DNA from: a virus
Virus record (IMG/VR): IMGVR_UViG_3300015371_000013
Location: 1-64,000 of that record
Direction: 5' to 3' (one strand)
Length of the DNA stretch: 64,000 nucleotides
The notes beneath the pieces are model-generated. The model was not told the origin of the DNA, made no database searches, and saw nothing but the letters and a program-made list of their open reading frames with translations. Position numbers and translations under genes: made by a program. Below, piece by piece: positions 23,634 through 36,848 of this stretch (its first letter is position 1; every line of letters begins with the position of its first letter).

Positions 23634-23657
23634 ATTAAAGGCTATGTTTTTCACGCG
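23634..23657 (-). promoter_or_regulatory. Phage promoter element CGCG-N14-TTTAAT
   Basis: Consensus spacing. Confidence 0.75.
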
Positions 23658-23706
23658 AATTACACAAAAAAGAGAACCTGCGTTTTAGACAGATTCTCCT
23701 TTGAGA

Positions 23707-23988
23707 TTACTTCTCCTGCTTGTCGTTCTTCTTAGCTTGGCGATTGTTCCACTTCTCGGTGAGGAAGTCGGCGGTCTTGTCGACGGCGATATCGGTGAGA
23801 CTGCCGCAGGCGTTACTTACGCCCCAGCCAACGATACCCGCTCCGATCTTGACGATCATGGCGTCCTTCTCGAAATTGGTGTTGTTGGCTGTGGTGTTGG
23901 TAACAACTTCGGCCGTCTTGATAGCGACGATCGACCTAGCGACCCACTTCGCAATGTTGCGAGCGGTGAAATCAGTAGGATCCAGCAT
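23707..23988 (-). CDS. Cassette protein with hydrophobic segment
   Basis: AGGAG RBS; promoter 24020-24043; terminator ~23666-23702. Confidence 0.7.
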   Translation of the reverse strand: MLDPTDFTARNIAKWVARSIVAIKTAEVVTNTTANNTNFEKDAMIVKIGAGIVGWGVSNACGSLTDIAVDKTADFLTEKWNNRQAKKNDKQEK

Positions 23989-24019
23989 AGAATTACTCCT
24001 AGTTTGGGGTTTGGTTCTC

Positions 24020-24043
24020 ATTATAGGCGATGAAATATACGCG
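24020..24043 (-). promoter_or_regulatory. Phage promoter element CGCG-N14-TATAAT
   Basis: Consensus match. Confidence 0.8.
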
Positions 24044-24125
24044 AGCCACGCGCTAACCCGTCCCACTGCTCGCACTCTACTGGCGCCGCCACTGGAGATA
24101 AGCCGGTCTTTCGTAGAGCTAAAAC

Positions 24126-24353
24126 TTAGAACAACTCAAGCTGGTCATCTTGATCATCTTGATCTTCTCGAATATCCCGTTCGAGTTCTTCAGGAGTCTC
24201 AGGTTTAGGCTTCTGACTATCTCTGATAAACCTGAGATAAACCGCTGTGATTCGATCTCTCGGCCAATTGGCGACCTTTTCTTGCCAGGCCAGGCCGGGA
24301 TACATCTTGGATACGTAATTTCGACGATCACGATCTTCTTTGTCTTGACTCAT
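24126..24353 (-). CDS. Conserved small phage protein
   Basis: R..V..MYPG..W..KV..W....I.AVY.R motif. Confidence 0.65.
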   Translation of the reverse strand: MSQDKEDRDRRNYVSKMYPGLAWQEKVANWPRDRITAVYLRFIRDSQKPKPETPEELERDIREDQDDQDDQLELF

Positions 24354-24356
24354 AAT

Positions 24357-24464
24357 CTATCGCCAGGACCATAGAATGGCAAAGAATATAAGGCACAGCC
24401 CCACCAGCATGATGGCCAGTACCTCACCTGGGCCCAGGCAGAGTCCAAGCCATTTGCAGAGCAT
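24357..24464 (-). CDS. 35-aa hydrophobic peptide (not in ORF track)
   Basis: AAAGGA RBS; MLCKWLG...LAIMLVGLCLIFFAILWSWR. Confidence 0.5.
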   Translation of the reverse strand: MLCKWLGLCLGPGEVLAIMLVGLCLIFFAILWSWR

Positions 24465-24579
24465 GGATTTGTCCTTTGAAATCGAGATTCTGAGCTGCCT
24501 CCATTGCCGTGCGGGATGAGCACCATGGCAATTGGCACTCCCTGCTGTTCTTCACAGCCAGGTCGCAGATCATCCCCTG

Positions 24580-24766
24580 CCCGTGGCGCCTACGTCTGGA
24601 GGGCGTACGGGTGGAGGAATGACCCCACTCAGAGTCTTTCTGAGTGGTCTTTTCCTAGAGGATATGGGGTACAAGGACGCAACTGCTTCTATCGCTGTTG
24701 TCTTTTATAGGCTAGCACTCTATGGGCTGCCGTCCTTGCCTTGCGCTTACCCCATCTCCCTAGGAG
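24580..24766 (-). ncRNA. Candidate structured RNA(s)
   Basis: 9-bp hairpin 24625-47; nested stems 24653-58/24760-65, 24664-71/24748-55, 24672-79/24731-38. Confidence 0.55.
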
Positions 24767-24770
24767 AGCT

Positions 24771-24986
24771 TTAACCCACCACGCTGATCTGGCGGATCAC
24801 GAACGCGTTCGAGGCACTTCCATGCGCGGAGAGTTCCAACCTATCTCCCCGAGGCGTGATCCTCAATCGGGCTTGTGGGTTACTTCTGCTCTCCACGAAC
24901 ACTTCTCCGCTGGGATTCGTGTATACCACCACGTCCCGGCTTTCGAAGTGAATCGGAAACTGCTCGGTTCCGATGTGAGAGGCCAT
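24771..24986 (-). CDS. Hypothetical protein
   Basis: AGGAGG RBS. Confidence 0.6.
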   Translation of the reverse strand: MASHIGTEQFPIHFESRDVVVYTNPSGEVFVESRSNPQARLRITPRGDRLELSAHGSASNAFVIRQISVVG

Positions 24987-25064
24987 GCATCCTCCTACTG
25001 TGGTTTAAGCCACCACATGGGCTTGACTACCTTTTGAAGCCATAGTTTTAAATATGCAAGCCAC

Positions 25065-25300
25065 GGGTCCGAACTATCCTACCCTGCCTGCTCTCTACCG
25101 GCGCCTGACTATTGAACGAACGAAGCCAAGAATTCAATAGTCGGTATTTTGTAGAGCGTCTTACCTCTAGTTTGGGTTTTGGTTATGCGTCAAATATGAC
25201 CGTGAGACCGTATAGTTTGCTGGCTCCCGGTGTTCGACGACGAATATGAGGTCAATCAAATCCGGTTACTTAGCCTATTATTTGGTCGTTGCACGGACCC
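25065..25300 (-). ncRNA. Candidate ~235-nt structured RNA
   Basis: Terminal stem 25065-71/25294-300, 10-bp stem 25107-16/25133-42, stem 25093-98/25151-56. Confidence 0.5.
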
Positions 25301-25325
25301 CTTAACAGGTACCAGCTTTAAAGAT

Positions 25326-25961
25326 TTAGGCCAGCTTGAAACGACCGGCAGCTAGACCGGTCTGAAGATCGGATGAATCCATCTCTACGACTTCGGCCTG
25401 GGTGAGAGTGACCGGATTATTAGAAGTGGCTGAGGCAATCTTTTTATCTCGATCAGCCTTCGTCTCGGCTATAGATCTCTGAGCAACCGCCGGTCGGGGA
25501 CCCATAGGTGTCTGAGCTCCATCAGCTTGAGCCTTCTCTGCCTGGGCTCGAATATCACCGGCAATCTTCTCAAGGTTGCTGGGAACCACACCGTTCATGA
25601 ATTCGGCGGCAGCTCCGGCGTCCGTACACAGCTCGAAGAGCAGCTGGGAAAAGGCTTCGGTAGAGGCAAATTCTTCCCAGATGACCGATGACTTGCGGAA
25701 GCTGTCTCCGTCTTTTCTGCCATAGGCTCGACGAATAATATCCTTGATCTCGGTCATGATGGCTTTGCCATCTTCAGAATCGACGATACGCTGAAGCTTG
25801 GCCTGCATACCCGTAAGCGTCTCGCCATCTTTGACGTATTTCACGCCGTGTTCTTCCATCTCCATCTCGACCAGATCAGCCTTGGAAATATGAAAGTAGT
25901 GTTCCTCCGTCACCTCCTCTTCGGTGAACGGGTTCTCGTAGGTGATGGTCTTCTTGAGCAA
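25326..25961 (-). CDS. Conserved phage protein (MLKKTITY family; possibly tail assembly chaperone-like)
   Basis: TTG start after AAGGAG; YFHISKADLVEME, AYGRK.G..FRKS, F..TEAFSQL. Confidence 0.7.
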   Translation of the reverse strand: MLKKTITYENPFTEEEVTEEHYFHISKADLVEMEMEEHGVKYVKDGETLTGMQAKLQRIVDSEDGKAIMTEIKDIIRRAYGRKDGDSFRKSSVIWEEFASTEAFSQLLFELCTDAGAAAEFMNGVVPSNLEKIAGDIRAQAEKAQADGAQTPMGPRPAVAQRSIAETKADRDKKIASATSNNPVTLTQAEVVEMDSSDLQTGLAAGRFKLA

Positions 25962-26022
25962 CGCGCTCCTTTCAACAAGGGAGCCTCCGTGCTCTGGATA
26001 ATTGCGTCCTTTCGAAATATAA

Positions 26023-26093
26023 GGCCATAGCCGGTCGCTGGGATTGCGCCAACTTGTTACATAGCGGTAGCGAACCGTACCGGCATTATGGCC
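26023..26093 (-). ncRNA. Candidate ~70-nt structured RNA
   Basis: GGCCAUA/UAUGGCC plus GCCGGU/ACCGGC, followed by UUAUAUUU. Confidence 0.5.
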
Positions 26094-26328
26094 CAGGGGT
26101 TACTTGTTCAGCAGCTTCGGCTTGCGCTCAAACCACCATGCGAGTCCGAAGGCACCGAGGGTGGTAGCGAGGATGATGAAAAACGGCTTCATGGCATCGA
26201 CGGGGACGGCTCAGGGGTTGATGGCGATGACGAAGGCGGTGACGGCTTCTCAGGCGCGCTCTTGCCCAGAAAATCGTCGATGATGTCACTGAGCATGTAG
26301 CCAACGGCTACTCCGAGCAGGAACTTGG

Positions 26329-26909
26329 TCATCGATTTCCCCCATTGGGATCGACCGTTTGGGCGGCCTTGGCCGCTGCCGTCGCTGCCTCGGCCCGCAG
26401 GGTCTTGCTGCCAAAGCGGTTGAGCGTGAACAGGAGGCCTACTCCGACCACCAAGCCTCCCAGCGCGCTCTGCTTGAAGACCTTCTTGCCGTGCTCGGTG
26501 ATGATGAGACGCGCGATCTCGTCCTCTCCCAGCGGTGTGGTGAAACCCTCACCAGTCTTAAGGGTCTTGAAACCCAACAATGTACTCTCCTTTGTTTTAT
26601 ATGACGATGTTCAGACGGTCAGGACTTGACGCAACCGGCTCTGAAACGGAGCACGCCGACGACGAACATGCTCGCGCCCAGCCCCATGAAGGTGGTCCCC
26701 CACGCCAGGTTTTCTTTGGCGAGCATCTCGGGCGTCTTGTTGATGGTGGTTCGGTTGATCACCGGGGGCTTGACGGCCGCCTTCTCGAGCAGCTCGTTGT
26801 ACCTCTCGACTGCGATCTTGACGGTACCGTCGCTTGCCGTCTTGATGGTCTGGACGTTCTCACTGGATTCGGCCATTGTACTCTCCTTGTTGTTATGAAT
26901 ATAAATCAA
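26329..26909 (-). other. Two membrane-protein CDSs (26329..26580, 26619..~26876)
   Basis: Both preceded by the same AACAA(A)GGAGAGTACA leader; C-terminal TM segments. Confidence 0.65.
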
Positions 26910-27122
26910 CGGAGCCCCCGATCCAGTACCGGGCCCTTAGGCAGACCGGCTACTGAACCGAGGGCTGTGATCCGTCGAGGCCGGTTCCCATCCGACCATC
27001 CCTCCTGAGGGATACTTGAAATATGTGGTCCGCGCTGAGGGAGAGGCATCAAAGTCCTTATGCCGACCACTCTCGATAGCCTCTTGCCTATTACCGTTGA
27101 TTAGATAATAGGTCTATCGAGT
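26909..27122 (-). ncRNA. Cluster of long intergenic hairpins, candidate RNA(s)
   Basis: Nested stems acgga/tccgt, gccc/gggc, cagta/tactg, ccgg/ccgg; ctcgatag/ctatcgag with cctatta/taatagg. Confidence 0.45.
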
Positions 27123-27134
27123 ACTACTTCAGAA

Positions 27135-27230
27135 CTACTTCTGCTTGGCCCACTTCTCCATCATCTGGAGCAAGGCGTCGGCCAGACGTTGCTTTCGATT
27201 CCTCTTACGACGAAGAAATGGGATGCGCAT
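27135..27230 (-). CDS. 31-aa basic peptide (not in ORF track)
   Basis: AAGGAG RBS; MRIPFLRRKRNRKQRLADALLQMMEKWAKQK. Confidence 0.5.
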   Translation of the reverse strand: MRIPFLRRKRNRKQRLADALLQMMEKWAKQK

Positions 27231-27541
27231 CTTGGGGTCTCCTTATTCTGGATCAAGAAAATATGACTGACTTAACGAGAGGGATGGATCGCCGTATTCA
27301 TTAGTGATCACAAACTGCGCTTCGTCGAATTTCTTTAAGATCCGATTTCGTTTCTGACTATTCCGCATTCGACGTCTATACAACGACGATCGTTTAGGAT
27401 AGTCCTGTGTTACTTGATGATTCTCTGCTATTTCCATCGGCCGAGAAACTTCAGACCGACCCCTCCGATGATGCCACTGGCGATGAGCATAAATATGCTG
27501 ATACCAGGGCATCAACCGGAGCTCGGGTGCTTCAAGTCGAT

Positions 27542-28351
27542 CTAGTAGTGCTTTGGGATGTAGTCCGGCTTGGGGAGTACCTGGAAGTCGATTGACAGAC
27601 AAGGTCTTCCGTCTGGAGATGTAACCGTATCGTACTTGAGCTCCAGAAGCTCATCGGTGTTCCACCCCATATCGTCGGTCCATGAGGTGGCGGGCATTCC
27701 GAGACGCTCGTAGAAGGCGGTAGCATTGACCCAACCTCGATCGTTGAGGATCTCGGCGTTGGTGTCGTTGACTGCCTTCTTGATCTTCTCCATGGTGCTA
27801 TGGAAATATCGTCCGGTCGGCTCATCAAAACAGAGAACCTCTCCCTCGACCACGACGATTTTCTGATAGCCGTCGGTTCGATTCACCCGATCCTGAGAAA
27901 TCTCCGCCTCGATGGATTGCTTCTTCGGACCGGTGAGCTTCTCGGAGACCTTCTCCTTGTACTCCGAGAGATTGCGTTCAGCCAGACCATAGGCCGCCGC
28001 CAAAGCTGCCGCTTTCTGAGCCGACATGCGATGGGAGAATATGATGGCACTGATCGTGAGACCTCCGGTGACGACAGGAGGCACGAACTGCGGCCAGACC
28101 AGCTTGATCTTCTGAGACGGGCTGAGTCCCATGGTGGCATTGCTTTCACCATCGATGACGTCGGTCACGCCTTCGGGATGAATATGCTCGAGCTCCTTCT
28201 CGCGGATGATCTCCGCGGCTTTAAAGCCAGCTCGGCCGGTGAGGACTGCGGTGGCAACTGTGCCAACAACACCTCCCGCGGTGAGCAGAACGGTCGCGTT
28301 CTCAGAAACGAACTGGGCGCCCTTCTGCTTTACTGCATCAAGAAACTGCAC
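27542..28351 (-). CDS. Conserved membrane-associated phage protein (DUF6353-like, second copy)
   Basis: ENATVLLTAGGVVG, ALAAAY, LCFDEPTGRYF, GW, DGRPC; ORF-track start lies inside the upstream promoter. Confidence 0.75.
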   Translation of the reverse strand: MQFLDAVKQKGAQFVSENATVLLTAGGVVGTVATAVLTGRAGFKAAEIIREKELEHIHPEGVTDVIDGESNATMGLSPSQKIKLVWPQFVPPVVTGGLTISAIIFSHRMSAQKAAALAAAYGLAERNLSEYKEKVSEKLTGPKKQSIEAEISQDRVNRTDGYQKIVVVEGEVLCFDEPTGRYFHSTMEKIKKAVNDTNAEILNDRGWVNATAFYERLGMPATSWTDDMGWNTDELLELKYDTVTSPDGRPCLSIDFQVLPKPDYIPKHY

Positions 28352-28383
28352 TCTCCTAGGCCTTTCTCGAACTTGGGTGGACG

Positions 28384-28421
28384 AAAAGAAAAAGAGATTC
28401 CGAATCAACGGATCTCTCTTC
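28384..28421 (-). ncRNA. Minimal cassette: promoter followed directly by hairpin and U-run
   Basis: GAAGAGAGAUCCG-UUGAUU-CGGAAUCUCUUUUUCUUUU. Confidence 0.55.
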
Positions 28422-28445
28422 ATTATAGGGGATGTTTTTCCCGCG
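28422..28445 (-). promoter_or_regulatory. Phage promoter element CGCG-N14-TATAAT
   Basis: Consensus match. Confidence 0.8.
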
Positions 28446-28450
28446 AATTT

Positions 28451-29613
28451 TCAGCGGTCGTTCTTCCGATGGATTTCGAGCCTCTCGCCAGGCTTGAATC
28501 GGCATCGCCCTAATTTTCCCTCCAAGGTGGTAAGGCCTATCTCACTGGGGGTAACCCATCTCACAGACACCACGTCGGTGACTGCGAAAACGACCTCCTC
28601 GGTTTCCTCATCGACAAATATGAGTTCGAAGGTCATCGAGACTTTCCGCGAAGAATGGCGGCGAGAGCCAGTAGTTTCTGAGCTTGGTCCTCGCATGACT
28701 GAGCAATCTGATCAGCGGTCATCGTCGCATCTCCCGGCAGAATATCCAGATGAGCCAGAGCCCCCCTGTGACAACTGTCAACATGACGTCGAACACAAAG
28801 GAAAAGAAGCCATAGCGCTTTCGCGGCTCTCCGAAGTAGACATGGCGAGAATATGTCTGATTGTCACGAAAGAACTCACGCATTGTCGTCACGCTCATTG
28901 TACTTGTTCTGGATCTCAATCAGCTTGGCCGACATGCTGTCGAGAATAACTTGATCGAACTCGCTGAGCTCGATACGATTATCATCCACGATTTGCAAAA
29001 GCCGATTGCGCTGTCTGATCGTCTCTTCGAGAGCGGTAGCCAGATCCTCTCGATGTTCAATTACGATATCAATGCTTTTGAGCAGTCGCTTGACCTGAAC
29101 TATCGATACAATGTTGGTGGCGAAGAGACCAGCAATGATGGCGTAAAAGTAAATATCACTATTGAGAAATTTACGCATCCCGCTTTATCCCCTTGGCTGT
29201 GGGGTGAAACTTTAAAGCGCGCCTCTCGGCGAGTTCTCGGGTGACGGCCCGGACTTTGACGGTTCGAGTCATCCCGTTCTCATACTCCACGGTGACGTGA
29301 TACAAGCGCTTCGACTTCTTGGTCTGCACGGCAGGCTCTTTCTGTTGAGGGTAAATATGACTTACGGAAGAAGATCTCTCAGAGCAGCGTAAGCTTCTCG
29401 TTGATTTGGAGTGAGCGAGAACTCAGCATACTCATTTGCGAGTTCTTTGATTTCCTGACGTTCTTCGGGGGTGAACTGTTCACGCAAAGTGCTCGCCATG
29501 CGACGAGCATCGTTGTGAATCGTCATGATCACTGTGTAATGGATGAGAGCTTTGTCTCGTGACTTCATCAGATTCCTTTCTGAGAAAAAAGAGAGAGAAG
29601 GGAATCTATCCAA
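28451..29613 (-). other. Run of small CDSs (28451..~28636, 28719..~28883 membrane, 28876..29178 membrane, ~29171..29329, 29362..~29568)
   Basis: Coupled small ORFs; the one ending at 28719 has LTVVTGGLWLIWIFCRE. Confidence 0.6.
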
Positions 29614-29664
29614 TTCAATGGCGTATTCCTTTGCAAGCCAACAGTCAGTTGGCTCTTCTCTCTC
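29585..29664 (-). ncRNA. Promoter-driven ~80-nt three-way-junction RNA
   Basis: Perfect 10-bp GAGAGAGAAG/CUUCUCUCUC then U6; hairpins AGCCAAC/GUUGGCU and GGAAU/AUUCC. Confidence 0.75.
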
Positions 29665-29688
29665 ACTATACGGCGTGTTTTCCCCGCG
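29665..29688 (-). promoter_or_regulatory. Phage promoter element CGCG-N14-TATAGT
   Basis: Consensus match. Confidence 0.8.
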
Positions 29689-29691
29689 TGA

Positions 29692-30072
29692 CTATGCGGT
29701 CACTACATCCGGCTTCCTGGCCACCCAGGTCGAGCTGATGAGATAGAGCCCAGCCAGGGTCGACAAGAACAGACCCCAACCCGGCTGAACCAGATCGTTG
29801 ACTCCCGCCTCACTGAGATGGAACCAGACATAGGCCACTTGAGACAGGACTACGAGACCGACGAAGATCGAGACGATCCTCATGTAGAGACCGGAGACGG
29901 CGGACGCGATGACGAGTCCGATGCCTGTGAATATGGCGACCGCCACCTCGGTGAAGTTCATCGGCCCGGCGCTGATGACTCCGAGAAAGCTGATCCAGGG
30001 GCCAAGGGCACCAAAGATAAGCGCGATAGCGCCAATGGTGAGCGCGGTGGGACGGTTGAGCTTGGTAGTCAT
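29692..30072 (-). CDS. Four-TM membrane protein
   Basis: Four hydrophobic helices, GPW and PGWGL motifs; AAGGAG RBS before MTTK. Confidence 0.7.
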   Translation of the reverse strand: MTTKLNRPTALTIGAIALIFGALGPWISFLGVISAGPMNFTEVAVAIFTGIGLVIASAVSGLYMRIVSIFVGLVVLSQVAYVWFHLSEAGVNDLVQPGWGLFLSTLAGLYLISSTWVARKPDVVTA

Positions 30073-30097
30073 GATGACTCCTTTATGGATTGTGGAT

Positions 30098-30185
30098 AAA
30101 AAAGAGAGACCCATCTCCTCCTGCTGTCGTAGCATGGCTTCGTTGGCAGGTCGCGTAGCATAGCTTCGCTGTGGAGATAGGTCTC
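30098..30185 (-). ncRNA. ~85-nt RNA with two copies of hairpin CGAAGC(U/C)AUGCUACG
   Basis: Stem GAGACCUAUCUCC/GGAGAUGGGUCUC then U-run; repeats at 30128-42 and 30154-68. Confidence 0.7.
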
Positions 30186-30195
30186 AAAATATAAA

Positions 30196-30314
30196 GAAAC
30201 CCCAGCACATTGCTCTACCTGGGCGCAATGCACTAGATAGAGTTAGGTGGGCACTCGAGGTACTTTTTACACCGTAGCCTGAGCGCAATGCATCAGACTA
30301 ACTGCTGGGGTTTC
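30196..30314 (-). ncRNA. Promoter-driven ~120-nt RNA with duplicated UGCAUUGCGC(U/C)CAGG
   Basis: Perfect 12-bp terminal stem 30196-207/30303-314; repeats 30218-32 and 30278-92. Confidence 0.75.
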
Positions 30315-30338
30315 ATTATACCACGGGTTTTCTACGCG
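30315..30338 (-). promoter_or_regulatory. Phage promoter element CGCG-N14-TATAAT
   Basis: Consensus match; overlaps stop codon of upstream gene. Confidence 0.8.
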
Positions 30339-30739
30339 AATACGGAATTCGGCAAAGCCGCAAACCGTTCTTGTAACCCGTGAATATCCTGAGCAATCTC
30401 ACGAGCGTTTTTGCCAACAACGGCTGCAGCTCGATTGATGCTCGGATAAGGTTCGCCAGTCAGCTTGTCCAAAACAGGAATTGGCTCACGACAAGCTCTT
30501 TTTACGAGGGCTATCTGGGTGATCTTGGGCTTCCAGATAATCAACGCCGTATTCTTTGCTTTCTGCTGTATCTCAAGCGGCAAACCGTTGAGACGAAGTA
30601 GAATGGTGGTCGCAGTGACAGAAGAGCCCACCGCGAGACATCCTGCGCCGACGAGATACACCTTCTTGTTCTCCTGCAGATGCTGCTTAACCCGCTCGAT
30701 CTTGGTACGATCGTCCTGCTTTTCTCCTTCCTGACTCAT
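30332..30739 (-). CDS. Membrane-anchored protein with C-terminal NUMOD1-like HTH (paralog of 34325..34705)
   Basis: KQHL..NKKVYLVGAGCL; PVLDKLTGEPYPSINRAA. Confidence 0.65.
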   Translation of the reverse strand: MSQEGEKQDDRTKIERVKQHLQENKKVYLVGAGCLAVGSSVTATTILLRLNGLPLEIQQKAKNTALIIWKPKITQIALVKRACREPIPVLDKLTGEPYPSINRAAAVVGKNAREIAQDIHGLQERFAALPNSVFA

Positions 30740-30922
30740 AGTCCCTTCCTTGGGTTGAACACTGATTTACAAATATGAGCGATGGTGACAGCGGTGATGA
30801 TCTTTATCACTGCGTCCGTCGTCTTGTCAATCACTCGTTCCACGTCTTCGGTGGGGATGTTGATGTTGATGTTTACATCATCTTCGATCTTGTGCTTCAC
30901 GACTCTCCTTGTCGCCCGAGGG

Positions 30923-30984
30923 AAAAAATGAAAGAGATCACAATTTCGAATATGCGATTACAGGAGCCTTTCTCCTTCTCTTTC
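30923..30984 (-). ncRNA. Promoter-driven ~60-nt three-way-junction RNA
   Basis: GAAAGAG/CUCUUUC stem then A-U6; hairpins AGGAG/CUCCU and AUCGCA/UGUGAU. Confidence 0.65.
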
Positions 30985-31008
30985 ATTATAGGGGCGGTTT
31001 TTCACGCG
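30985..31008 (-). promoter_or_regulatory. Phage promoter element CGCG-N14-TATAAT
   Basis: Consensus match. Confidence 0.8.
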
Positions 31009-31010
31009 AA

Positions 31011-31373
31011 TTATTCACCCTCAATATCTGCTTTGATATCCGGCAATTCCTTCGGGCGTTCTCGTCTTTCTGAGGTGACGATCACGGTTATGGTGGGCAA
31101 TTCCCACCGGCGTTCGGCCAGAGGATCGATCTGCATCTGGCGAAGATCCTCAGGCGTTAAAGAGAACTCGTATACTTCAGGCGTGATGACCTTGTCTCTG
31201 TCGGCCAGCACCGAGTTGAACTTCATCGCCTTGTAGGTAACCGCCGATCCAACCATGGCTCCAAATATCCCGGTGGCGGCGTAAGGATGATCGGTAGCGA
31301 ATCTGATCGAACGAGACAGCAGAAGCAACCAGTTTATCTGGTTCATCTGCTCTTTCATCTGATCTTGCTCCAT
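31011..31373 (-). CDS. Single-pass membrane protein (paralog of 36936..37184)
   Basis: TM followed by LTPEDL....DP....W motif. Confidence 0.65.
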   Translation of the reverse strand: MEQDQMKEQMNQINWLLLLSRSIRFATDHPYAATGIFGAMVGSAVTYKAMKFNSVLADRDKVITPEVYEFSLTPEDLRQMQIDPLAERRWELPTITVIVTSERRERPKELPDIKADIEGE

Positions 31374-31994
31374 CTAGCCAACCTCCTTGCTGGCCTGTAT
31401 CGAAGCGCTTACACCAATGATTCTGCAGAGAAGATTGATCGAATCGTGAGAATGCAGCGGCTCGTAATGCGGATTGAGCTTGTCTTGCTTTACCAGATCA
31501 ACGATGCCCTGAATATCCGTACGCCATTGAGAAGACGTATAGTAATCGGCCAGCCCGCGATCCGTACGCTTAAGCGTGTCAAGGAACTTATCCTCGGCAA
31601 TCTCCTTAATACGATTTGCCCATTCCGAGGTAATTTCCATAGTCGCCCCTGTGCCCTTCTGAACGAAGGGCGAATTGTCGACGTACTGCATAGCGTCGTT
31701 GTAGATTCGAGCAACCACGATCTCCTTGAGGGCATCCTGACCATAGATCAGGACAGCATAACCCAAGGGCAGATTCCAGATCTTCTCCGGACGACCATGA
31801 TGAACGCCCTGAGTGAGGCAGTTGTAGCCCCACTCGATTTCCTTCTGAGACTTCTGAGGACCCTTTACCTTGATGAACTTCACCATATTCTCAGCCTCGT
31901 ATTCCGAGACATCAAGTTCTTTGGCGATTTCACTGATAGAACGGTCTTCGCCTATCATCTGACGAGTTCGAGCTAGTTTCTCTTGGGTGTTCAT
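31374..31994 (-). CDS. N-terminal HTH protein
   Basis: RSISEIAKELDVS; AGAGGAG RBS. Confidence 0.6.
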   Translation of the reverse strand: MNTQEKLARTRQMIGEDRSISEIAKELDVSEYEAENMVKFIKVKGPQKSQKEIEWGYNCLTQGVHHGRPEKIWNLPLGYAVLIYGQDALKEIVVARIYNDAMQYVDNSPFVQKGTGATMEITSEWANRIKEIAEDKFLDTLKRTDRGLADYYTSSQWRTDIQGIVDLVKQDKLNPHYEPLHSHDSINLLCRIIGVSASIQASKEVG

Positions 31995-32099
31995 TACTCT
32001 CCTCTATACGCTTGATCTTTTGCTCCCAGAATGTCCAGTCCCGCCACCGCTGTTCTAGCAAATATAGCCGTTCTGGAGTCAACCACGGAGCAATCAACT

Positions 32100-32569
32100 T
32101 CATTGATCTCCAAGTCCGGTATCGCGCAGAATTTTTCGCGAGATTTCCTTCGGATCAGTCAACCCTTGCCATTCTGTTCCTTCGCGGATGGCAAACAGGA
32201 CGTCAATCACGGCCAGATTGTATCCGACAAACTTAGCCTGATCCTCCGGAGAAATCTCTAGGTCGCCAGGCACAGGCTCAGCAATCTGCATGAAAGTATC
32301 TTGAAGCTCTTTGAGTCGAGCTTTTTCGGTTTCGGTGATCATTGCTCTCCTAAATATAGTGATTAATCGTCGATAACCAGAGGGTCAAACCATCGACCAT
32401 CTAGATCATGACGAAACCCTGCCTCAAGCATACGTTGTTCGATAATCTCCGGATGCTCGGCCTCCATGTGCCGCACCTCTTCGTGCGTATTGTTGGCAAC
32501 TGCTCCACAATATGGGCAATGCCTCACACAATAAGGTCCGGAGCTCATGGGGTAATCCTCGTCATACAC
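32100..32569 (-). other. Two small CDSs (32100..32342; 32363..~32548 with CxxC/HxxxxH zinc finger)
   Basis: RBS; CPYC...HM..EH. Confidence 0.55.
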
Positions 32570-33021
32570 AGACTGATTCCACTCTGGGTACTCATGTAGC
32601 GCGCATCAGGCCAGATTCCCTTGCGATGAAGATCCAGCCGGTCGGCGTCCCAACAGGTGGCGATAGTGGGATTGATCGCTCTTTGACCAGAGCTATGCTC
32701 CACACAGGCCTCGAACAGTAGTTCTATTTGCTCATCGAAAATATAGCGATGGAGATGCTCTTGCGTCTTGTAGAAGCGTTCCCACAATCGATACCCTCGA
32801 TTTCCATGATCAGGATCTTTACCATCGTTTACCCGCATGGAGTCGTGAAATAAAGCGTACAACGCCACAACTTCCATGTCGGCGCCGGTTTCATACCCGT
32901 TTAGCATCTGAGCGTTCTGCCAGACCCTAAACCAATGGTCAAGACCATGGAGTCGACTCTGGAGAACGTTCAGGGTTATAGACTCGCCCAAGACAAAGGG
33001 AACGCAATGACTGGCGAGCAT
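32545..33021 (-). CDS. HD-domain phosphohydrolase
   Basis: HG..HW.RV, ALFHD, H, CWDADRLD. Confidence 0.85.
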   Translation of the reverse strand: MLASHCVPFVLGESITLNVLQSRLHGLDHWFRVWQNAQMLNGYETGADMEVVALYALFHDSMRVNDGKDPDHGNRGYRLWERFYKTQEHLHRYIFDEQIELLFEACVEHSSGQRAINPTIATCWDADRLDLHRKGIWPDARYMSTQSGISLCMTRITP

Positions 33022-33047
33022 GGTTACTCCTGCGGGTTGGCCGTTGA

Positions 33048-33320
33048 TTATAAACTTTCCTTTGCTTTCTTGCGCTTTCGTCTCTTGTAGGCACGATCCA
33101 CGGTTCGTCTAGCGCAGATATCGCTACAGTACTGTGCATCGTTTCGAGGCTTTCTTGTTTTCGAGAGAGGCTCTTGGAATAGAAATTCCTTTTGACAGGT
33201 TTCGTCAGCACATCGCTTGATCTCGACATCAAGTAAAGTCAAGATCGCATCTGTGAGAGTGCTGGTTTGAGTATAGGAAAGGGCAGTCTGAACTACTACG
33301 TCGGGTACATCTTGGTTCAT
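33048..33320 (-). CDS. CGNR-like zinc-finger protein
   Basis: CADETC..EF...AQYCSDIC.RR, basic tail. Confidence 0.6.
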   Translation of the reverse strand: MNQDVPDVVVQTALSYTQTSTLTDAILTLLDVEIKRCADETCQKEFLFQEPLSKTRKPRNDAQYCSDICARRTVDRAYKRRKRKKAKESL

Positions 33321-33872
33321 CACGACTGCAAATATGCGATGTCGCGAGCCTGCTTGAGATCGCGAGCCTGCTCGATGGTCAGACCAAGAAGCTCGGTCTT
33401 GGTGAAGCTCAGCTCGTCGCTGAACCACGGGAAGACAAACTTCTCAGAGCCGTCTTCCATAGTGGCGATGGCCTCCTTGTCACCGTAGCGGTGATTGGAG
33501 TCTTGAAAGATTACTGACTTGATGCGCATAACTCTCCTAGTTTGGGTTGCCGAACAGTTCTTCCAGACGTGTAGCCAGATACTCCTGTCGAACTTCGTGA
33601 TGAACGTCTTTCAACTCTTCAAGAATATCGTGAGCAATCTGCTGATACTCCTGGCTGCTCGTAGTCTCGACGGGGAACCAGCGGTTAAGCTTCGGGTAAG
33701 GCCCTTCGCTTCTAAGGGCGTTTTCCCGCTTGAGTCGTCCGAGCATGGTGGTGATCTGGAGTGGCGGGCCCTCGAAAGAAATCCCAGCAATGATCTCAGA
33801 TCGAGCGGCTCCAGGATTGGCACGGACATATTCTATGATTTGATGTGTAAGAGTGTTGTTGGTTTGTGACAC
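33320..33872 (-). other. Hypothetical CDS (33320..33529) and winged-HTH CDS (33537..33872)
   Basis: RBS; QIIEYVRANPG..RSEI...LGRLKR pattern. Confidence 0.55.
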
Positions 33873-33937
33873 AAAGTCTCTCAGGTTGTGGGGTCTCAGA
33901 AAAAATGAGAACCCACGAATGGATTCTCATTGAAATA

Positions 33938-34144
33938 CTACGACTTGTTGAGCTTGGCGGTCTCGAGGTTGAGCTTGGCGGTCTCGAGCTGCATCTGGTT
34001 CACCTTGAGGCCTGCGTACACGGACGCGCCGGTCAGAGCCACGGGAATGACGATCCACGCGGTCATGATGGCGGCATCCTTGATGCGCTGCTTCTTGGTG
34101 GGCTTGGGCGGCTCGACGACCTTGGGGGTCTCGGGCTCGGACAT
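33938..34144 (-). CDS. Single-pass membrane cassette protein
   Basis: AAGGAG RBS, TM, LETAKLN repeat; ORF-track extension runs through the upstream RNA. Confidence 0.7.
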   Translation of the reverse strand: MSEPETPKVVEPPKPTKKQRIKDAAIMTAWIVIPVALTGASVYAGLKVNQMQLETAKLNLETAKLNKS

Positions 34145-34193
34145 GCAACACTCCTTTTGTAGTGGTTTCATTATGAACTGTGAAATATCCGCG

Positions 34194-34298
34194 AAAGAAA
34201 AGAGAGAGCCACCTACCAACGACTTATAGAAGTTGGGATCCGACCCCCTTAAAGGGGATCTCGTCAAGGCGACTTAGAGAAGCCTAGATGACTCTCTC
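34194..34298 (-). ncRNA. Promoter-driven ~100-nt four-way-junction RNA with duplicated CUUCU(C/A)UAAGUCG
   Basis: 14-bp terminal stem with two G-U pairs; three hairpins, the outer two sharing the motif. Confidence 0.78.
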
Positions 34299-34324
34299 AC
34301 TATAAAGCGTGAATATGGCGCGAA

Positions 34325-34705
34325 TTATATGGTGATACGTTCGAAGTGCAACCCATTCGCATGCGGGTATTTACCGTTCAGATGCTGTGAAAGGTTAGTT
34401 TCCGAGATGCCCTTCGCCAAAGCGGCCTCTGCTTGGCTGCTCCACTTCTCCAGAGTTTCGAGACATCGTACTGGATTAGCCGGGTAATTGCGCTGGTTCA
34501 AATACTTGATGACCACGTCGACATTCTTTGACTTATTGACTATCAGACCAATGTTGTCAGTACCATTGAACGTCTGAATTACATTGGGGCTTGACACCCC
34601 GCGCAGCAAATATCCCGCGGTAAGACATCCTGCACCAACCAAGTAAACCTTCTTGTTGTCCTTCAAATGCTGCTTGATCTTCTGATAACGCGTAGACTCT
34701 TCCAT
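34325..34705 (-). CDS. Membrane-anchored protein with C-terminal NUMOD1-like HTH
   Basis: KIKQHLKDNKKVYLVGAGCL; PVRCLETLEKWSSQAEAA...SQHLNGK...GLHF. Confidence 0.7.
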   Translation of the reverse strand: MEESTRYQKIKQHLKDNKKVYLVGAGCLTAGYLLRGVSSPNVIQTFNGTDNIGLIVNKSKNVDVVIKYLNQRNYPANPVRCLETLEKWSSQAEAALAKGISETNLSQHLNGKYPHANGLHFERITI

Positions 34706-34760
34706 GATTTCCTTTAGTTCGTTTGAATAAAAAAGGAAAGCCCCTTTTCGGGGCTCGCCT

Positions 34761-34922
34761 TTAGGCGTAGATCTGAACGACGCCGGGGACGAGGGTGGTC
34801 TCAGCCAGCTTGGCCTGGGACTTGGTGATCATTCGCTCGTACTTGTACACCGCACGGATAGTGCGGAGAACGTTGACGTTTGCGTTGATCTCGGTCTTAA
34901 CGGCCTTGATGGGATGGAACAT
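34761..34922 (-). CDS. 53-aa cassette protein (not in ORF track)
   Basis: AAGGAG RBS; MFHPIKAVKTE...QIYA between promoter and terminator. Confidence 0.7.
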   Translation of the reverse strand: MFHPIKAVKTEINANVNVLRTIRAVYKYERMITKSQAKLAETTLVPGVVQIYA

Positions 34923-35009
34923 AATGGTCTCCTTTGGTGGTTTAGGTCTTCATTATGTACCATGTTTTTCACGCGAAAAAGGAAAGCCCGTGCGGACTCT
35001 CCTTAGAAA

Positions 35010-35207
35010 TTACTTCACCTGGTTGGAAGCTGCCTTGAGGGTTTCGAGGACGATCCTCTTGTCGAGCATCTTGTACGAGATGAATGAGTTGGCGACTGCG
35101 GTAGCACAGTAGATGGAAAAGCATCCGAGTACTAGCTTTTGGCTGCCAGTCATCATCATGATACGAGACCTCCTAAGAGGCTCACGGGTTTCGTTTGACT
35201 CGGGCAT
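35010..35207 (-). CDS. Cassette membrane protein
   Basis: Between promoter 35235 and terminator; an alternative start near 35159 has AGGAGG. Confidence 0.65.
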   Translation of the reverse strand: MPESNETREPLRRSRIMMMTGSQKLVLGCFSIYCATAVANSFISYKMLDKRIVLETLKAASNQVK

Positions 35208-35295
35208 AACTCTCCTAGAGTTGATAGTGGTTTCATTATAGCCTGTGAAAAGTATGCGAAAAACTGAAAGCCCGGGTTAGGGGCTCTCAGTTTGA

Positions 35296-35433
35296 TTAGC
35301 TGCTCTTCTTCGAAAGCAGATGATCGGCGATGACGATTGAACTCGTTGCCAGCGTAAGCCACGCACTGGCCCGAGTGGCCCGATGGGCGTGGGGGGCGGT
35401 GACGTGGATGACGGCGGCGAGCTTGTTCTTCAT
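35296..35433 (-). CDS. 45-aa cassette protein (not in ORF track)
   Basis: AAGGAG RBS; MKNKLAAV...SKKSS. Confidence 0.7.
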   Translation of the reverse strand: MKNKLAAVIHVTAPHAHRATRASAWLTLATSSIVIADHLLSKKSS

Positions 35434-35531
35434 GGCAAATCTCCTTCTGATAAGAGGGTTTACTTTTCATTAGAAGCTATGAAATATCCGCGAAAAACCT
35501 AGAGACCGGGTTAGGGTCTCAGGGTTTTGAA

Positions 35532-35723
35532 CTAGAACTTACGGGCGATGATGACTTGGGAGTTCGGCTCGAGTGCGGCCAGAGCATCGACATGTTCCTG
35601 GATGCGGCGCTGACGCTCCTGCTCTTCCCCAGCTGCAGCGAATGCAGTGAGGGTGAACAGAGCGGCGCCACCCAGGGCCTTGCCGGTGTTGCGGGCGTAC
35701 TTCTTGGCGGTTTCCTTGGTCAT
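35532..35723 (-). CDS. Cassette membrane/secreted protein
   Basis: RBS, hydrophobic segment. Confidence 0.7.
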   Translation of the reverse strand: MTKETAKKYARNTGKALGGAALFTLTAFAAAGEEQERQRRIQEHVDALAALEPNSQVIIARKF

Positions 35724-35823
35724 GGTTTTTCTCCTTTTGAGTTTGATTTAGTTCTCATTATAAGACATGAAAATTACGCGAAAAAAGAAAGAAAGAGAAT
35801 CCGATGCGGACTCCCTTCTTGAT

Positions 35824-35955
35824 TTAGACCTGCGAGGTGTACTGGTGACCAACGTCTTGTAGACTGGCGTACACGTCCATTGCAAATATGCTTCCCATCG
35901 CGAGGATGGTGAGCAGGATTACAACGAACATGAGGCGTCCGAGGGACAGGGTCAT
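35824..35955 (-). CDS. 43-aa membrane cassette protein (not in ORF track)
   Basis: AAGGAG RBS; MTLSLGRLMFVVILLTILAMG... Confidence 0.7.
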   Translation of the reverse strand: MTLSLGRLMFVVILLTILAMGSIFAMDVYASLQDVGHQYTSQV

Positions 35956-36043
35956 GAGGTATCTCCTTGTTTAGGTTTGGTTTCATTATACTCCATGAAA
36001 TATGCGCGAAAAAGGAAAGCCCGTGCGGACTCTCCTGTTGAGG

Positions 36044-36262
36044 TTACTTCTTGGGGTTAATGTTCTCGACAGCGCGCCTGGCGGAAGTGAGAGCGATCTG
36101 CTCCTCGAGGTACATGATGCGGGCATTGACCTTGTTGGTGTGGCTCTCGCTAGCGGCAGGGCTAGCGGAAAGCTGCCAACGAGTCATTTCGGCATTCAGG
36201 TACTCGAGGATGGCATCAAGCTTCTCAACTTCTGTAATAGGCTTACGGGTCTTGAAAAACAT
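36044..36262 (-). CDS. Cassette protein
   Basis: RBS, own promoter and terminator. Confidence 0.7.
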   Translation of the reverse strand: MFFKTRKPITEVEKLDAILEYLNAEMTRWQLSASPAASESHTNKVNARIMYLEEQIALTSARRAVENINPKK

Positions 36263-36343
36263 GTTGACTCCTTGATAGTGGTTTCACTATAATCCATGAA
36301 ATATGCGCGAAAAAGGAAAGCCTGGGTAGGCTCTCCTGTGAAA

Positions 36344-36520
36344 CTAATTGTTCTGCTGGGAAACGTCGGCTTCGAACTTGCGCTTATTTCGGCGGTCCAG
36401 ATAGTTGACGAATCCGATACCCACGACGATCAGAGTAGCGTTGAGGGCAACGTACTGAACGGGGTGACTACGAATCCAGTCGTACTGGACCTCCTGAGAC
36501 TTGCGGTAAAGCTTGAACAT
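36344..36520 (-). CDS. Cassette membrane protein
   Basis: GGAG RBS, WIRSHPVQY followed by TM. Confidence 0.7.
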   Translation of the reverse strand: MFKLYRKSQEVQYDWIRSHPVQYVALNATLIVVGIGFVNYLDRRNKRKFEADVSQQNN

Positions 36521-36614
36521 TGGAGTTCTCCAGTGTAGAGGTTTGGTTTCATTATAACCCATGAAATATGCGCGTAAAAAAAGAGAAGCCGGGTTAGGAC
36601 TCCTCTCTAACGAT

Positions 36615-36848
36615 CTAATCGATGGGAATCAGGTCGTAGTGAAATCGCGGAAAGCCGATACGTCTCATCTGGAAACGATAACGACCGGGCGGCACGGTGC
36701 GGAAATCTCCGTCCTGACACATGTTCATGAAAGTTCCGTGAAGAATCTTTTCTTTTTGTGTCGGGTCAGAGGTGACATAGGCAACGTGGGCCACATCGTC
36801 GTCGTTTATAGTGACGAGAATATAGGGTTTTGACGATTTTCGAAACAT
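36615..36848 (-). CDS. Cassette protein
   Basis: GAAAGGA RBS, own promoter and terminator. Confidence 0.7.
   Translation of the reverse strand: MFRKSSKPYILVTINDDDVAHVAYVTSDPTQKEKILHGTFMNMCQDGDFRTVPPGRYRFQMRRIGFPRFHYDLIPID

What the first reader, a model, noticed from the sequence alone, without database searches (positions are those of the whole stretch)
30098..30185. Bivalent RNA with two near-identical A.A-mismatch hairpins
Seen: a 13-bp closing stem (one G-U) presents CGAAGCUAUGCUACG and CGAAGCCAUGCUACG, each folding as CG-A-AGC-(Y)AU-GCU-A-CG. It lies directly 3' of the 30196-30314 RNA, separated by UUUAUAUUUU. Known: repeated hairpin motifs typify protein-sequestering RNAs (CsrB/RsmZ) and type III antitoxins. 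Inference: a decoy for a dimeric host RNA-binding or defence protein.
Basis: partly seen in the sequence, partly recalled or inferred. Interest (0 to 1): 0.76.

Follow-up and report, generated by a model that had tools for sequence, protein, structure and literature searches.

The report
Twin-hairpin clamped small RNA of phage
The stretch is a real, tightly folded non-coding RNA module of a soil phage that shows two copies of one small hairpin, and it belongs to a widespread RNA family, found in no RNA catalogue or paper searched, that also occurs in cultured Gordonia and Rhodococcus phages; its job is still unknown.

Summary
On the minus strand, 30098-30185 folds (MFE -40.3 kcal/mol, z -6.6) into a 13-bp clamp with one G.U. 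The clamp encloses two hairpins with the near-identical head CG-A-AGC-YAU-GCU-A-CG and is followed by a U-tract. There is no Rfam 15 match.

The design is conserved. Relatives of this phage carry promoter-proximal, 5'/3'-clamped RNAs with 2-3 near-identical hairpins right after a membrane-anchored NUMOD1-like HTH gene. These relatives are IMG/VR contigs, Rhodococcus phage ReqiPepy6 and cluster DJ Gordonia phages.

Heads are identical within a module but differ between phages, while their lower stems co-vary. Nearly every head has a 1x1 mismatch with A on the 3' side: 19 of 34 hairpins, against 1.2 +/- 1.0 in shuffles.

A sediment variant keeps the fold through three substitutions. Its RNA-region contig is 97% identical, against 87% for a separate contig on the adjacent gene.

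The best reading is a stable Y-shaped small RNA that shows two identical heads to a sequence-specific, probably dimeric partner. Its clamp plus U-tract would also act as an intrinsic terminator before a conserved membrane-protein gene. The partner is unknown, and a host or defence decoy is neither supported nor excluded.

Earlier notes of this scan (e1-3447981/2/3) describe the same family on other phage DNA.

The parts
30315..30339 (-). Phage promoter (TTCGCG-N13-TATAAT) overlapping the stop codon of the upstream gene. It is the only promoter-like site upstream of the two RNA modules.
   Evidence: It is one of about 20 minus-strand copies of the motif between 23.5 and 38 kb. The core TATAATGAGA occurs 5-12 times per relative genome, on the coding strand only.
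30196..30314 (-). RNA module 1: a 12-bp clamp and three arms, two of them with the head GC-AUUGC-GC.
   Evidence: MFE -51.3 for 30186-30314, z -4.7. CAUUGCG-type heads also follow the same gene in Conley, Artorias and L093, and a near variant (UCAUUGAGA) in L097.
30186..30195 (-). U/A-rich tail of module 1, which is also the spacer to module 2 (UUUAUAUUUU).
   Evidence: No promoter stands here, unlike relative L060, where a promoter precedes the homologous module.
30173..30185 (-). Module 2 (the finding): 5' arm of the clamp P1 (GAGACCUAUCUCC).
   Evidence: It is the same GAGACC start as the initial transcribed sequence of the promoter family.
30153..30169 (-). Hairpin 1: GCG-[A]-AGC-UAU-GCU-[A]-CGC.
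30120..30150 (-). Hairpin 2 on the extended stem CCUGC/GCAGG. The head CG-[A]-AGC-CAU-GCU-[A]-CG lies at 30142-30128.
   Evidence: The natural variant changes C>U in the loop and turns one G-C pair into G.U.
30106..30118 (-). 3' arm of the clamp P1 (GGAGAUGGGUCUC).
   Evidence: The U.G pair becomes C-G in the variant.
30098..30105 (-). U-tract (UCUUUUUU). With P1 it forms an intrinsic-terminator-like signal.
   Evidence: U-rich tails follow most of the homologous clamps.
29692..30072 (-). Downstream gene for a conserved 126-aa membrane protein with an AAGGAG ribosome-binding site. It has no promoter of its own, so it is reached only by read-through.
   Evidence: 13 metagenome homologues at 55-100% identity. 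No Pfam, PHROG or PADLOC match.
30332..30739 (-). Upstream gene for a 135-aa membrane-anchored protein with a C-terminal NUMOD1-like HTH. It is the conserved left neighbour of these RNA cassettes.
   Evidence: phrog_27818. Homologues in ReqiPepy6 and DJ phages and 35 metagenome proteins. In the model the C-terminal domain has pLDDT above 90, and its best fold matches are DNA-binding modules (8b6e, I-HmuI, I-TevI), though weak at E 0.06-0.7.

Best explanation
The stretch is the second of two tandem non-coding RNA modules transcribed from the phage promoter at 30339-30315. It belongs to a family of Y-shaped or cloverleaf-shaped phage small RNAs that was found in no catalogue or paper searched. 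In these RNAs the transcript's first bases pair with the bases just before a U-rich tail, forming a 5'/3' clamp, and 2-3 copies of a module-specific hairpin head are shown. Each head is a short upper stem plus a 3-6-nt loop, set off from its lower stem by a 1x1 N.A mismatch. Shown here: the fold, its conservation as a design, the identity of heads within a module, the co-varying lower stems, and the mismatch. Inferred: the clamp and terminator hairpin shield both RNA ends, so the RNA accumulates. Inferred: the two identical heads are bound by two subunits of one sequence-specific partner, more likely a phage-encoded protein than a host one. Inferred: the 13-bp clamp plus U6 also terminates most transcripts, so only read-through reaches the downstream membrane-protein gene.
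For: Fold and statistics. No single-stranded stretch longer than 3 nt exists in the module, so an antisense seed is unlikely. Homologous modules share the architecture but have different heads. L060 RNA-B has the clamp GAGACCCAU/AUGGGUCUC, twin heads C-GCGGC-UUU-GCCGU-A at the same 26-nt spacing, and its second head on an extended stem (z -7.0). The others are ReqiPepy6 E2 and E3, eight DJ Gordonia phages and IMG/VR loci L093, L094, L097 and L098. In the 15-module set, 21 of 34 hairpins have a 1x1 mismatch as the first interruption (5.7 +/- 2.1 in shuffles, maximum 12 of 200). Of these, 19 have a 3' A (1.2 +/- 1.0, maximum 5). In the 20-module set, 33 such hairpins split into A.A 17, C.A 11, G.A 2, C.C 2 and A.G 1; 30 have the 3' A, and the 5' partner is never U. 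Within modules, upper stems and loops are mostly identical, while lower stems differ by both-sided changes in L060_A, L060_B, L094_1, Conley_2 and Pepy6_E2. Upper-stem compensations occur in L060_A, L098 (GCGC/GCGC against GUGC/GCAC) and Pepy6_E2. G.U pairs in the stems fit the sense strand. A natural variant contig (run X6) differs at 4 of 148 positions over 30091-30238. Its three listed changes in the module are one in a loop, one G-C to G.U and one U.G to C-G, and the MFE structure is unchanged (-40.2). A separate contig on the neighbouring gene differs at 20 of 151 positions. The promoter family sits directly upstream and is strand-specific. In ReqiPepy6, Conley, OhMyWard and Untouchable a fresh promoter follows the RNA, so there it is a stand-alone unit and not a leader.
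Against: No expression data exist: transcript ends and abundance are inferred, and the run search listed only DNA or unclassified runs, held as contigs. No partner has been identified. In this phage the module has no promoter of its own and lies behind the terminator-like end of module 1, so its level depends on read-through. The variant's substitutions do not tell the strands apart (the plus-strand fold also improves), and its two contigs are not shown to come from one genome. Twin copies are not independent data points in the mismatch count. If the host RNA polymerase starts about 7 nt after TATAAT, promoter-adjacent clamps in the relatives would be shorter than drawn. A close relative by the downstream protein (L058, 90% identity) has a different interior, so this particular head is dispensable for that gene.
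Confidence: 0.5

Rival explanations
1. It is only a compound intrinsic terminator or attenuator. The clamp plus U-tract stops transcription before the membrane-protein gene, and the inner hairpins merely help the long-range stem to close or stabilise the 3' end. There would be no function in trans.
For: A GC-rich 13-bp stem is followed directly by UCUUUUUU. U-rich tails follow most homologous clamps. The downstream gene has no promoter of its own here or in Avazak, Artorias, Petito and Pherobrine.
Against: The phage's ordinary terminators are simple hairpins. A terminator does not need identical heads on co-varying lower stems or a nearly invariant N.A mismatch. In L060 the homologous clamp has no U-tract directly behind it, and a separate hairpin plus U7 does that job. 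In ReqiPepy6 three modules stand in tandem before a new promoter.
Confidence: 0.2
2. This is the first reader's idea: a decoy RNA that soaks up a dimeric host RNA-binding or defence protein, such as an RNA-targeting toxin or nuclease.
For: It lies in an early-type accessory region of tiny promoter-to-terminator cassettes, where anti-defence genes tend to sit. The display is multivalent. Each genome carries several RNA cassettes with different heads. Head diversity could mirror diverse host targets.
Against: Phages isolated on the same strain (G. rubripertincta NRRL B-16540: Avazak, Artorias, Pherobrine, Petito, OhMyWard, Untouchable) carry different heads at the same position. The twin motif has no counterpart in 185,579 prokaryote genomes beyond unrelated tandem or REP-like repeats. 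No neighbouring protein matches PADLOC.
Confidence: 0.15
3. It acts at the DNA level. The quasi-palindromic 15-mers would be binding sites for a DNA-binding protein, such as the membrane-anchored NUMOD1-like HTH protein encoded just upstream, perhaps as operators or as a membrane tether for phage DNA.
For: The cassettes nearly always follow that gene. The best fold matches of its C-terminal domain are DNA-binding modules. The two sites are 26 bp apart both here and in L060.
Against: The stems hold many G.U pairs, which are mismatches on the other strand and mean nothing in duplex DNA. Compensatory changes occur between heads of one module. The consistent N.A asymmetry is not what a symmetric dimer site predicts. 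The clamp joins the promoter-proximal bases to the terminator tail, which is the logic of an RNA. The head next to the HTH gene is that of module 1, not this module.
Confidence: 0.07
4. It is a type III toxin-antitoxin-like pair: a repeat RNA antitoxin, then a terminator, then a toxic protein, here the membrane protein.
For: The layout is promoter, repeated RNA, terminator, gene.
Against: There are only two 15-nt heads, not tandem 34-36-nt units. The downstream protein has no match to any Pfam, PHROG or PADLOC family, ToxN or Abi families included. The RNA interior is swapped in L058 while the protein stays 90% identical. The homologous RNA in L060 precedes an ORF that showed no match to the membrane-protein profile. 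In other phages a new promoter separates RNA and gene.
Confidence: 0.03

Closest known systems
PeSL (promoter-early stem-loop) regulatory cassettes of T4-type phages (Arbiol et al. 2010, PMC2839356)
   Same: Repeated small units made of a strong promoter and a terminator stem-loop punctuate a region of small accessory genes, and they appear to allow modular exchange. Here the interior is swapped in L058 and promoters are present or absent between relatives.
   Different: PeSLs are regulatory junctions that flank ORFs. Here the cargo between promoter and terminator tail is itself a folded RNA with repeated heads, and the terminator stem is formed with the transcript's own 5' end.
Type III antitoxin RNAs (ToxI, CptI, TenpI)
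   Same: Phage- or plasmid-borne repeated RNA units stand in front of a terminator and a protein gene and bind a protein partner multivalently.
   Different: There are no tandem 34-36-nt units and no ToxN, Abi or endoribonuclease partner. The neighbouring gene varies, and the RNA is a closed Y-shape rather than a processed array.
CsrB/RsmZ-type protein-sponge RNAs
   Same: They are multi-hairpin RNAs thought to present repeated sites to a dimeric protein.
   Different: The defining GGA loop motifs are absent. The heads are module-specific rather than one shared motif. The host partner, CsrA, is as far as I know absent from Actinobacteria.
Lambdoid N-boxB recognition
   Same: Two nearly identical small hairpins occur per phage (the lambda nutL and nutR boxB differ by one loop base, from my own knowledge). 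They are specific to the phage and differ between relatives, which implies a co-evolving phage protein.
   Different: The boxB hairpins lie in two separate transcripts, have a GNRA-like pentaloop and no mismatch, and act in antitermination. Here both heads lie in one clamped RNA, and no arginine-rich partner is known.
phi29 packaging RNA (pRNA)
   Same: It is a phage small RNA with a 5'/3' paired helix and a three-way junction carrying two hairpins. Its sequence diverges while the shape is kept.
   Different: pRNA is a single gene per genome with loop-loop complementarity for ring formation. Here there are several cassettes per genome, triloops that cannot kiss, and identical rather than complementary heads.

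Membership tests
Any Rfam 15 family | Score at or above the family's gathering threshold | tested here: not met
   No match in the whole window. With permissive filters on 29900-30500 there were only two chance-level hits, neither on the element.
Rho-independent (intrinsic) terminator | A GC-rich stem immediately followed by a U-tract on the transcribed strand | tested here: met
   A 13-bp stem is followed by UCUUUUUU. The simple scanner misses it because the 'loop' is 54 nt. Actual termination was not tested.
Type III toxin-antitoxin (ToxIN-like) | Tandem direct repeats of about 34-36 nt forming the antitoxin | tested here: not met
   There are two 15-nt heads 26 nt apart inside a closed stem.
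Type III toxin-antitoxin (ToxIN-like) | An adjacent ToxN/AbiEii-type endoribonuclease gene that travels with the RNA | tested here: not met
   The downstream 126-aa membrane protein has no Pfam, PHROG or PADLOC match. RNA and protein are uncoupled in L058, and the L060 locus showed no match to this protein.
CsrB/RsmZ sponge RNAs | Multiple GGA motifs in hairpin loops | tested here: not met
   The loops are UAU and CAU, with no GGA in a loop.
ANTAR dual-hairpin antiterminator target | Two hairpins with hexaloops (conserved A1 and G4), the second competing with a terminator | tested here: not met
   The loops are triloops, and both hairpins lie inside the terminator stem rather than competing with it. 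The feature list is from my own knowledge.
Guanidine-II (mini-ykkC) twin hairpins | Two hairpins with ACGR tetraloops | tested here: not met
   The loops are UAU and CAU, and no Rfam hit was found.
Twin-head clamped phage RNA cassettes (found in no catalogue searched; ReqiPepy6, cluster DJ, IMG/VR relatives) | A clamp between the promoter-type GAGA/GAAA start and the bases before a U-rich tail | tested here: met
   The clamp is GAGACCUAUCUCC/GGAGAUGGGUCUC plus a U-tract. The same holds in L060, ReqiPepy6, the DJ phages and L093-L098. In this phage the promoter stands one module upstream.
Twin-head clamped phage RNA cassettes (found in no catalogue searched) | 2-3 near-identical hairpin heads carrying a 1x1 N.A mismatch | tested here: met
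   Two A.A heads differ by one loop base.
Twin-head clamped phage RNA cassettes (found in no catalogue searched) | Position behind the membrane-anchored NUMOD1-like HTH gene, whose stop codon lies in the promoter | tested here: met
   The gene at 30332-30739 ends ..SVFA* = TTCGCGTAG. The same synteny is seen.
tRNA or tmRNA | A cloverleaf recognised by ARAGORN | tested here: not met
   No gene was found in the window or in nine related loci.

The most novel reading that the evidence does not exclude
The clamped twin-head RNAs are dedicated ligands, regulators or templates of the signature polymerase of this phage supercluster. That polymerase is the single-chain YonO/crAss-like homologue of RNA-dependent RNA polymerases, encoded at 561-3440 and conserved at 50-52% identity in ReqiPepy6 and DJ phages. 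This would mean RNA-directed control of, or RNA-templated synthesis by, a two-barrel phage polymerase. A less radical version is that each cassette is one RNA 'gene' of an arsenal whose heads each capture a different protein.
Probability: 0.05. Interest if true: 0.92.

Novelty: new variant of a known kind. Interest (0 to 1): 0.6.

Why it matters
Phage-encoded structured RNAs with a known role are few: pRNA, ToxI mimics, RNA anti-CRISPRs and put RNAs. Here is a family with a clear, conserved grammar: a clamp, 2-3 identical heads and an N.A mismatch. It comes in several cassettes per genome and occurs in easily grown, genetically tractable phages of non-pathogenic Gordonia hosts. It is absent from Rfam 15, and I found no paper on it. 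Because the heads are specific to a module yet duplicated, they point to specific RNA-protein pairs that can be fished out directly. The family also co-occurs with an unusual single-chain RNA polymerase and a 25-bp promoter family, so mapping these RNAs would help define that polymerase's promoters and terminators.

Tried and rejected
The DNA around most metagenome homologues of the two flanking proteins could therefore not be fetched.
- The protein-guided scan of metagenome contigs gave only two loci. L058 stops 55 nt upstream of the gene and L059 is cut. The scans of viral and genome contigs with the membrane protein found nothing.
- Exact-motif scans of IMG/VR gave single chance-level hits only and no second bivalent copy. 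The L060-type head occurs twice only in its own contig.
- The twin-motif scan of prokaryote genomes gave nine hits, all unrelated tandem or REP-like repeats without clamp or synteny.
- The sequencing-run search listed no RNA holder. All runs were contigs, so nothing can be said on expression or RNA ends.
- MAFFT could not align the modules structurally. I therefore built no covariance model and did not use the count of structure pairs. Hairpins were compared in scripts, anchored on the mismatch.
- The ReqiPepy6 genome paper (Summer et al. 2011) is not held. Full-text searches found no description of these RNAs or promoters.
- The 959-aa polymerase has no sequence match in the PDB.
- A coding reading was rejected. 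Only GTG-started ORFs of 41-54 aa without a ribosome-binding site overlap the element, and the homologous modules differ throughout their interior sequence.
- Complex prediction was not used, since no protein partner could be nominated with reason.

Full report
**1. What is there**

The window is the first 64 kb of an 80.5-kb IMG/VR virus record rated complete. Its GC content is about 50% and nearly all genes lie on the minus strand. The finding sits in a 259-nt gene-free gap. On one side is a 135-aa gene (30332-30739) and on the other a 126-aa membrane-protein gene (29692-30072) with an AAGGAG ribosome-binding site.

- a 13-bp clamp with one U.G pair;
- hairpin 1, GCG-[A]-AGC-UAU-GCU-[A]-CGC;
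- hairpin 2, CG-[A]-AGC-CAU-GCU-[A]-CG, on an extra CCUGC/GCAGG stem;
- then UCUUUUUU.

The MFE is -40.3 kcal/mol and holds 81% of the ensemble, with z -6.6. The opposite strand folds less well. The degenerate 15-mer occurs nowhere else in the window or the genome. Rfam 15 has no match and ARAGORN finds no tRNA.

**2. Context in this phage**

About 20 copies of one promoter-like motif (TTCGCG-N13-TATAAT, followed by GAAA or GAGA) lie on the minus strand between 23.5 and 38 kb. Most stand about 25 nt in front of a ribosome-binding site and right behind a simple terminator. One copy, at 30339-30315, overlaps the stop codon of the 135-aa gene. Its TTCGCGTAG encodes the conserved C-terminal Phe-Ala-stop.

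This promoter is followed at once by RNA module 1 (30314-30196), which has a 12-bp clamp, three arms and the tail UUUAUAUUUU. Next comes the finding, module 2. There is no promoter-like site between module 2 and the membrane-protein gene, so that gene is reached only by read-through of two terminator-like clamps.

Other ORF-less promoter-to-terminator units, listed in earlier notes of this scan, fold as clamped RNAs too. They lie near 29585-29664, 30923-30984 and 34194-34298, with a minimal one at 28384-28421.

**3. Relatives**

The flanking proteins led to related phages:
- **L060** is an IMG/VR contig found through a DUF6353 neighbour. It has the same order: a homologue of the 135-aa gene, a promoter over its stop codon, a clamped RNA with three arms, a second promoter, and then a 73-nt RNA. 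That RNA has the clamp GAGACCCAU/AUGGGUCUC and twin heads [C]-GCGGC-UUU-GCCGU-[A] at the same 26-nt spacing, with the second head on an extended stem. Its MFE is -46.5 and z -7.0. The architecture equals that of the finding, but the head sequence is entirely different.
- **ReqiPepy6**, a cultured Rhodococcus phage, has gp065 followed by a promoter over the stop codon and three tandem modules. One carries three C.A-mismatch heads. Another has a 13-bp clamp and twin heads C-[A]-CCU-UUAUG-AGG-[A]-G. A fresh promoter for gp066 follows.
- **Eight cluster DJ Gordonia phages** and **IMG/VR loci L093, L094, L097 and L098** show the same design.

The promoter core TATAATGAGA occurs 5-12 times per relative genome, on the coding strand only and never in the control. 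In Conley, OhMyWard, Untouchable and ReqiPepy6 a new promoter follows the RNA, so there the RNA is a stand-alone transcription unit. In Avazak, Artorias, Petito, Pherobrine and the present phage it is also the leader of the next gene.

**4. What is conserved**

*The mismatch.*
- In 15 modules, 21 of 34 predicted hairpins have a 1x1 mismatch as the first interruption below the loop. Shuffles give 5.7 +/- 2.1, with a maximum of 12 in 200.
- Of these, 19 have A on the 3' side. Shuffles give 1.2 +/- 1.0, with a maximum of 5.
- Over 20 modules there are 33 such hairpins: A.A 17, C.A 11, G.A 2, C.C 2 and A.G 1. Thirty have the 3' A, and the 5' partner is never U.

*The heads.*
- Within a module, the mismatch, upper stem and loop are mostly identical between copies. 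The lower stems differ by both-sided, pair-preserving changes in L060_A, L060_B, L094_1, Conley_2 and Pepy6_E2.
- Compensations also occur in the upper stems of L060_A, L098 (GCGC/GCGC against GUGC/GCAC) and Pepy6_E2 (CUGCC/GGCGG against CUACC/GGUGG).
- The same head on different stems argues for selection on the displayed head, not just a recent duplication.
- G.U pairs in the stems fit an RNA of the sense strand.
- Twin copies are not independent, but at least a dozen distinct head types show the mismatch.

**5. Close variants of this very element**

Contigs from a 2025 freshwater-sediment run were laid on the window. One 151-nt contig covers 30091-30238 with 4 differences (97% identity). 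Another, on the adjacent coding region, has 20 differences in 151 (87%). It is not shown that the two contigs come from one genome.

The three listed differences inside the module are a loop C>U (making both loops UAU), a G-C to G.U change in head 2, and a U.G to C-G change in the clamp. The MFE structure is unchanged at -40.2. These changes preserve the structure but do not discriminate between the strands.

In contrast, L058 encodes a membrane protein 90% identical to ours. It keeps the ribosome-binding site, the U-tract and the outer 3' clamp bases, but has a different interior whose last bases resemble the L060-type module. The contig ends there. Heads thus seem to be exchangeable units.

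**6. Function**

Nothing here shows function directly.
- **Base-pairing sRNA.** The module has no single-stranded stretch longer than 3 nt, which argues against this reading.
- **Plain terminator.** Identical heads, co-varying lower stems and the nearly invariant mismatch are not needed for termination. The phage's normal terminators are simple hairpins.
- **Host decoy.** This is not supported. Phages isolated on one host strain carry different heads. Prokaryote genomes hold the twin motif only in unrelated repeats. No neighbour matches PADLOC.
- **The upstream protein as partner.** It is membrane-anchored, and the best fold matches of its confidently modelled C-terminal domain are DNA-binding modules: 8b6e, I-HmuI and I-TevI. 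The E-values are weak, 0.06-0.7. It is a candidate partner by position only, and the head next to it is that of module 1 (CAUUGCG type, shared with Conley, Artorias and L093).

I therefore commit, at about 0.5, to a stable Y-shaped RNA that offers two identical heads to a sequence-specific, probably dimeric and probably phage-encoded partner, and whose clamp plus U-tract doubles as a terminator that throttles the downstream gene.

**7. Wider context and prior notes**

The phage encodes a 959-aa protein (561-3440) of phrog_4291. It is 50-52% identical to proteins at the right end of ReqiPepy6, Avazak, Pherobrine and an IMG/VR relative. Avazak gp92 is annotated 'RNA-dependent RNA polymerase'.

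A preprint calls this YonO/crAss-like polymerase the signature gene of a supercluster of actinophages (clusters AM, AU, AW, BI, CC, DJ, EL) and the Lactococcus 1706 and Faecalibacterium phages (10.1101/842583). [quoted passage not shown] Whether the promoter family here serves the host enzyme or this polymerase is open. The clamps begin at the G right after TATAAT, which would suit a start there.

The closest described cassette logic is the PeSL of T4-type phages (PMC2839356). Earlier notes of this scan (e1-3447981, -82, -83) describe the same kind of twin-hairpin cassettes behind membrane-anchored DNA-binding protein genes in another phage genome. My results agree with them and were obtained independently on this window.

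**8. Verdict**

This is a new variant of a known kind: a phage structured small RNA with multivalent hairpin display, found in no RNA catalogue or paper searched. Interest is 0.6.

Noticed in passing
window 23500-38100, minus strand (for example 38095-38071, 36310-36286, 31009-30985, 30339-30315, 28446-28422): There are about 20 copies of a 25-bp promoter-like motif, TTCGCG-N13-TATAAT followed by GA(A/G)A. They fall into two spacer subclasses: ..ATATTTCATGG.. before small protein genes and ..GAAAAAC.. mostly before ORF-less RNA cassettes. The core TATAATGAGA is strand-specific and occurs 5-12 times in each of five relatives.
   Followed up: partly
window 561-3440, minus strand: A 959-aa protein of phrog_4291 ('RNA-dependent RNA polymerase', YonO/crAss-like two-barrel type). 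It is conserved at 50-52% identity at the genome end of ReqiPepy6, Avazak, Pherobrine and an IMG/VR relative. It has no PDB sequence match. It could be the enzyme that uses the promoter family.
   Followed up: partly
window 30196-30314, minus strand: Module 1 shows the head GC-AUUGC-GC twice. CAUUGCG-type heads also follow the same membrane-HTH gene in Conley, Artorias and L093, and a near variant (UCAUUGAGA) in L097. Unlike the head of module 2, this head is conserved in sequence across distant phages.
   Followed up: partly
window 29585-29664, 30923-30984, 34194-34298, 28384-28421, about 23533-23640, minus strand: These are further ORF-less promoter-to-U-tract units that fold as clamped RNAs. 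The one at 34194-34298 shows CU-(C/A)UA-AG heads with 2x2 internal loops twice and follows a paralogue of the membrane-HTH gene (34325-34705).
   Followed up: partly
window 30332-30340, and alignment A2: The conserved C-terminus ..SVFA-stop of the membrane-HTH protein family is encoded by the promoter's TTCGCGTAG. Protein end and promoter therefore constrain each other.
   Followed up: partly
L064-L070 (DJ phages), downstream of the RNA cassettes: The promoter between the RNA and the next gene is present in Conley, OhMyWard and Untouchable. In Avazak, Artorias and Petito it looks precisely deleted (CUCG|ACCCC junction), and it is also missing in Pherobrine. This shows cassette-level gain and loss.
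   Followed up: no
L058 1-60: A relative whose membrane protein is 90% identical keeps the terminator tail but has a different RNA interior, whose end resembles the L060-type module. This suggests that heads are swapped as units.
   Followed up: partly
window 41150-41400, minus strand: This is the strongest local folding signal of the genome in a 100-nt sliding scan (about -60 kcal/mol, GC 0.68). It lies at the start of the 1978-aa ORF and was not examined.
   Followed up: no
window 61638-63353 and 51915-53999, minus strand: The first is a collagen-repeat protein of 571 aa. The second is a 694-aa ORF with weak, sub-threshold Pfam hits to a prohead protease and a capsid domain, possibly a protease-capsid fusion. 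Both are structural genes typical of the ReqiPepy6-like group.
   Followed up: no
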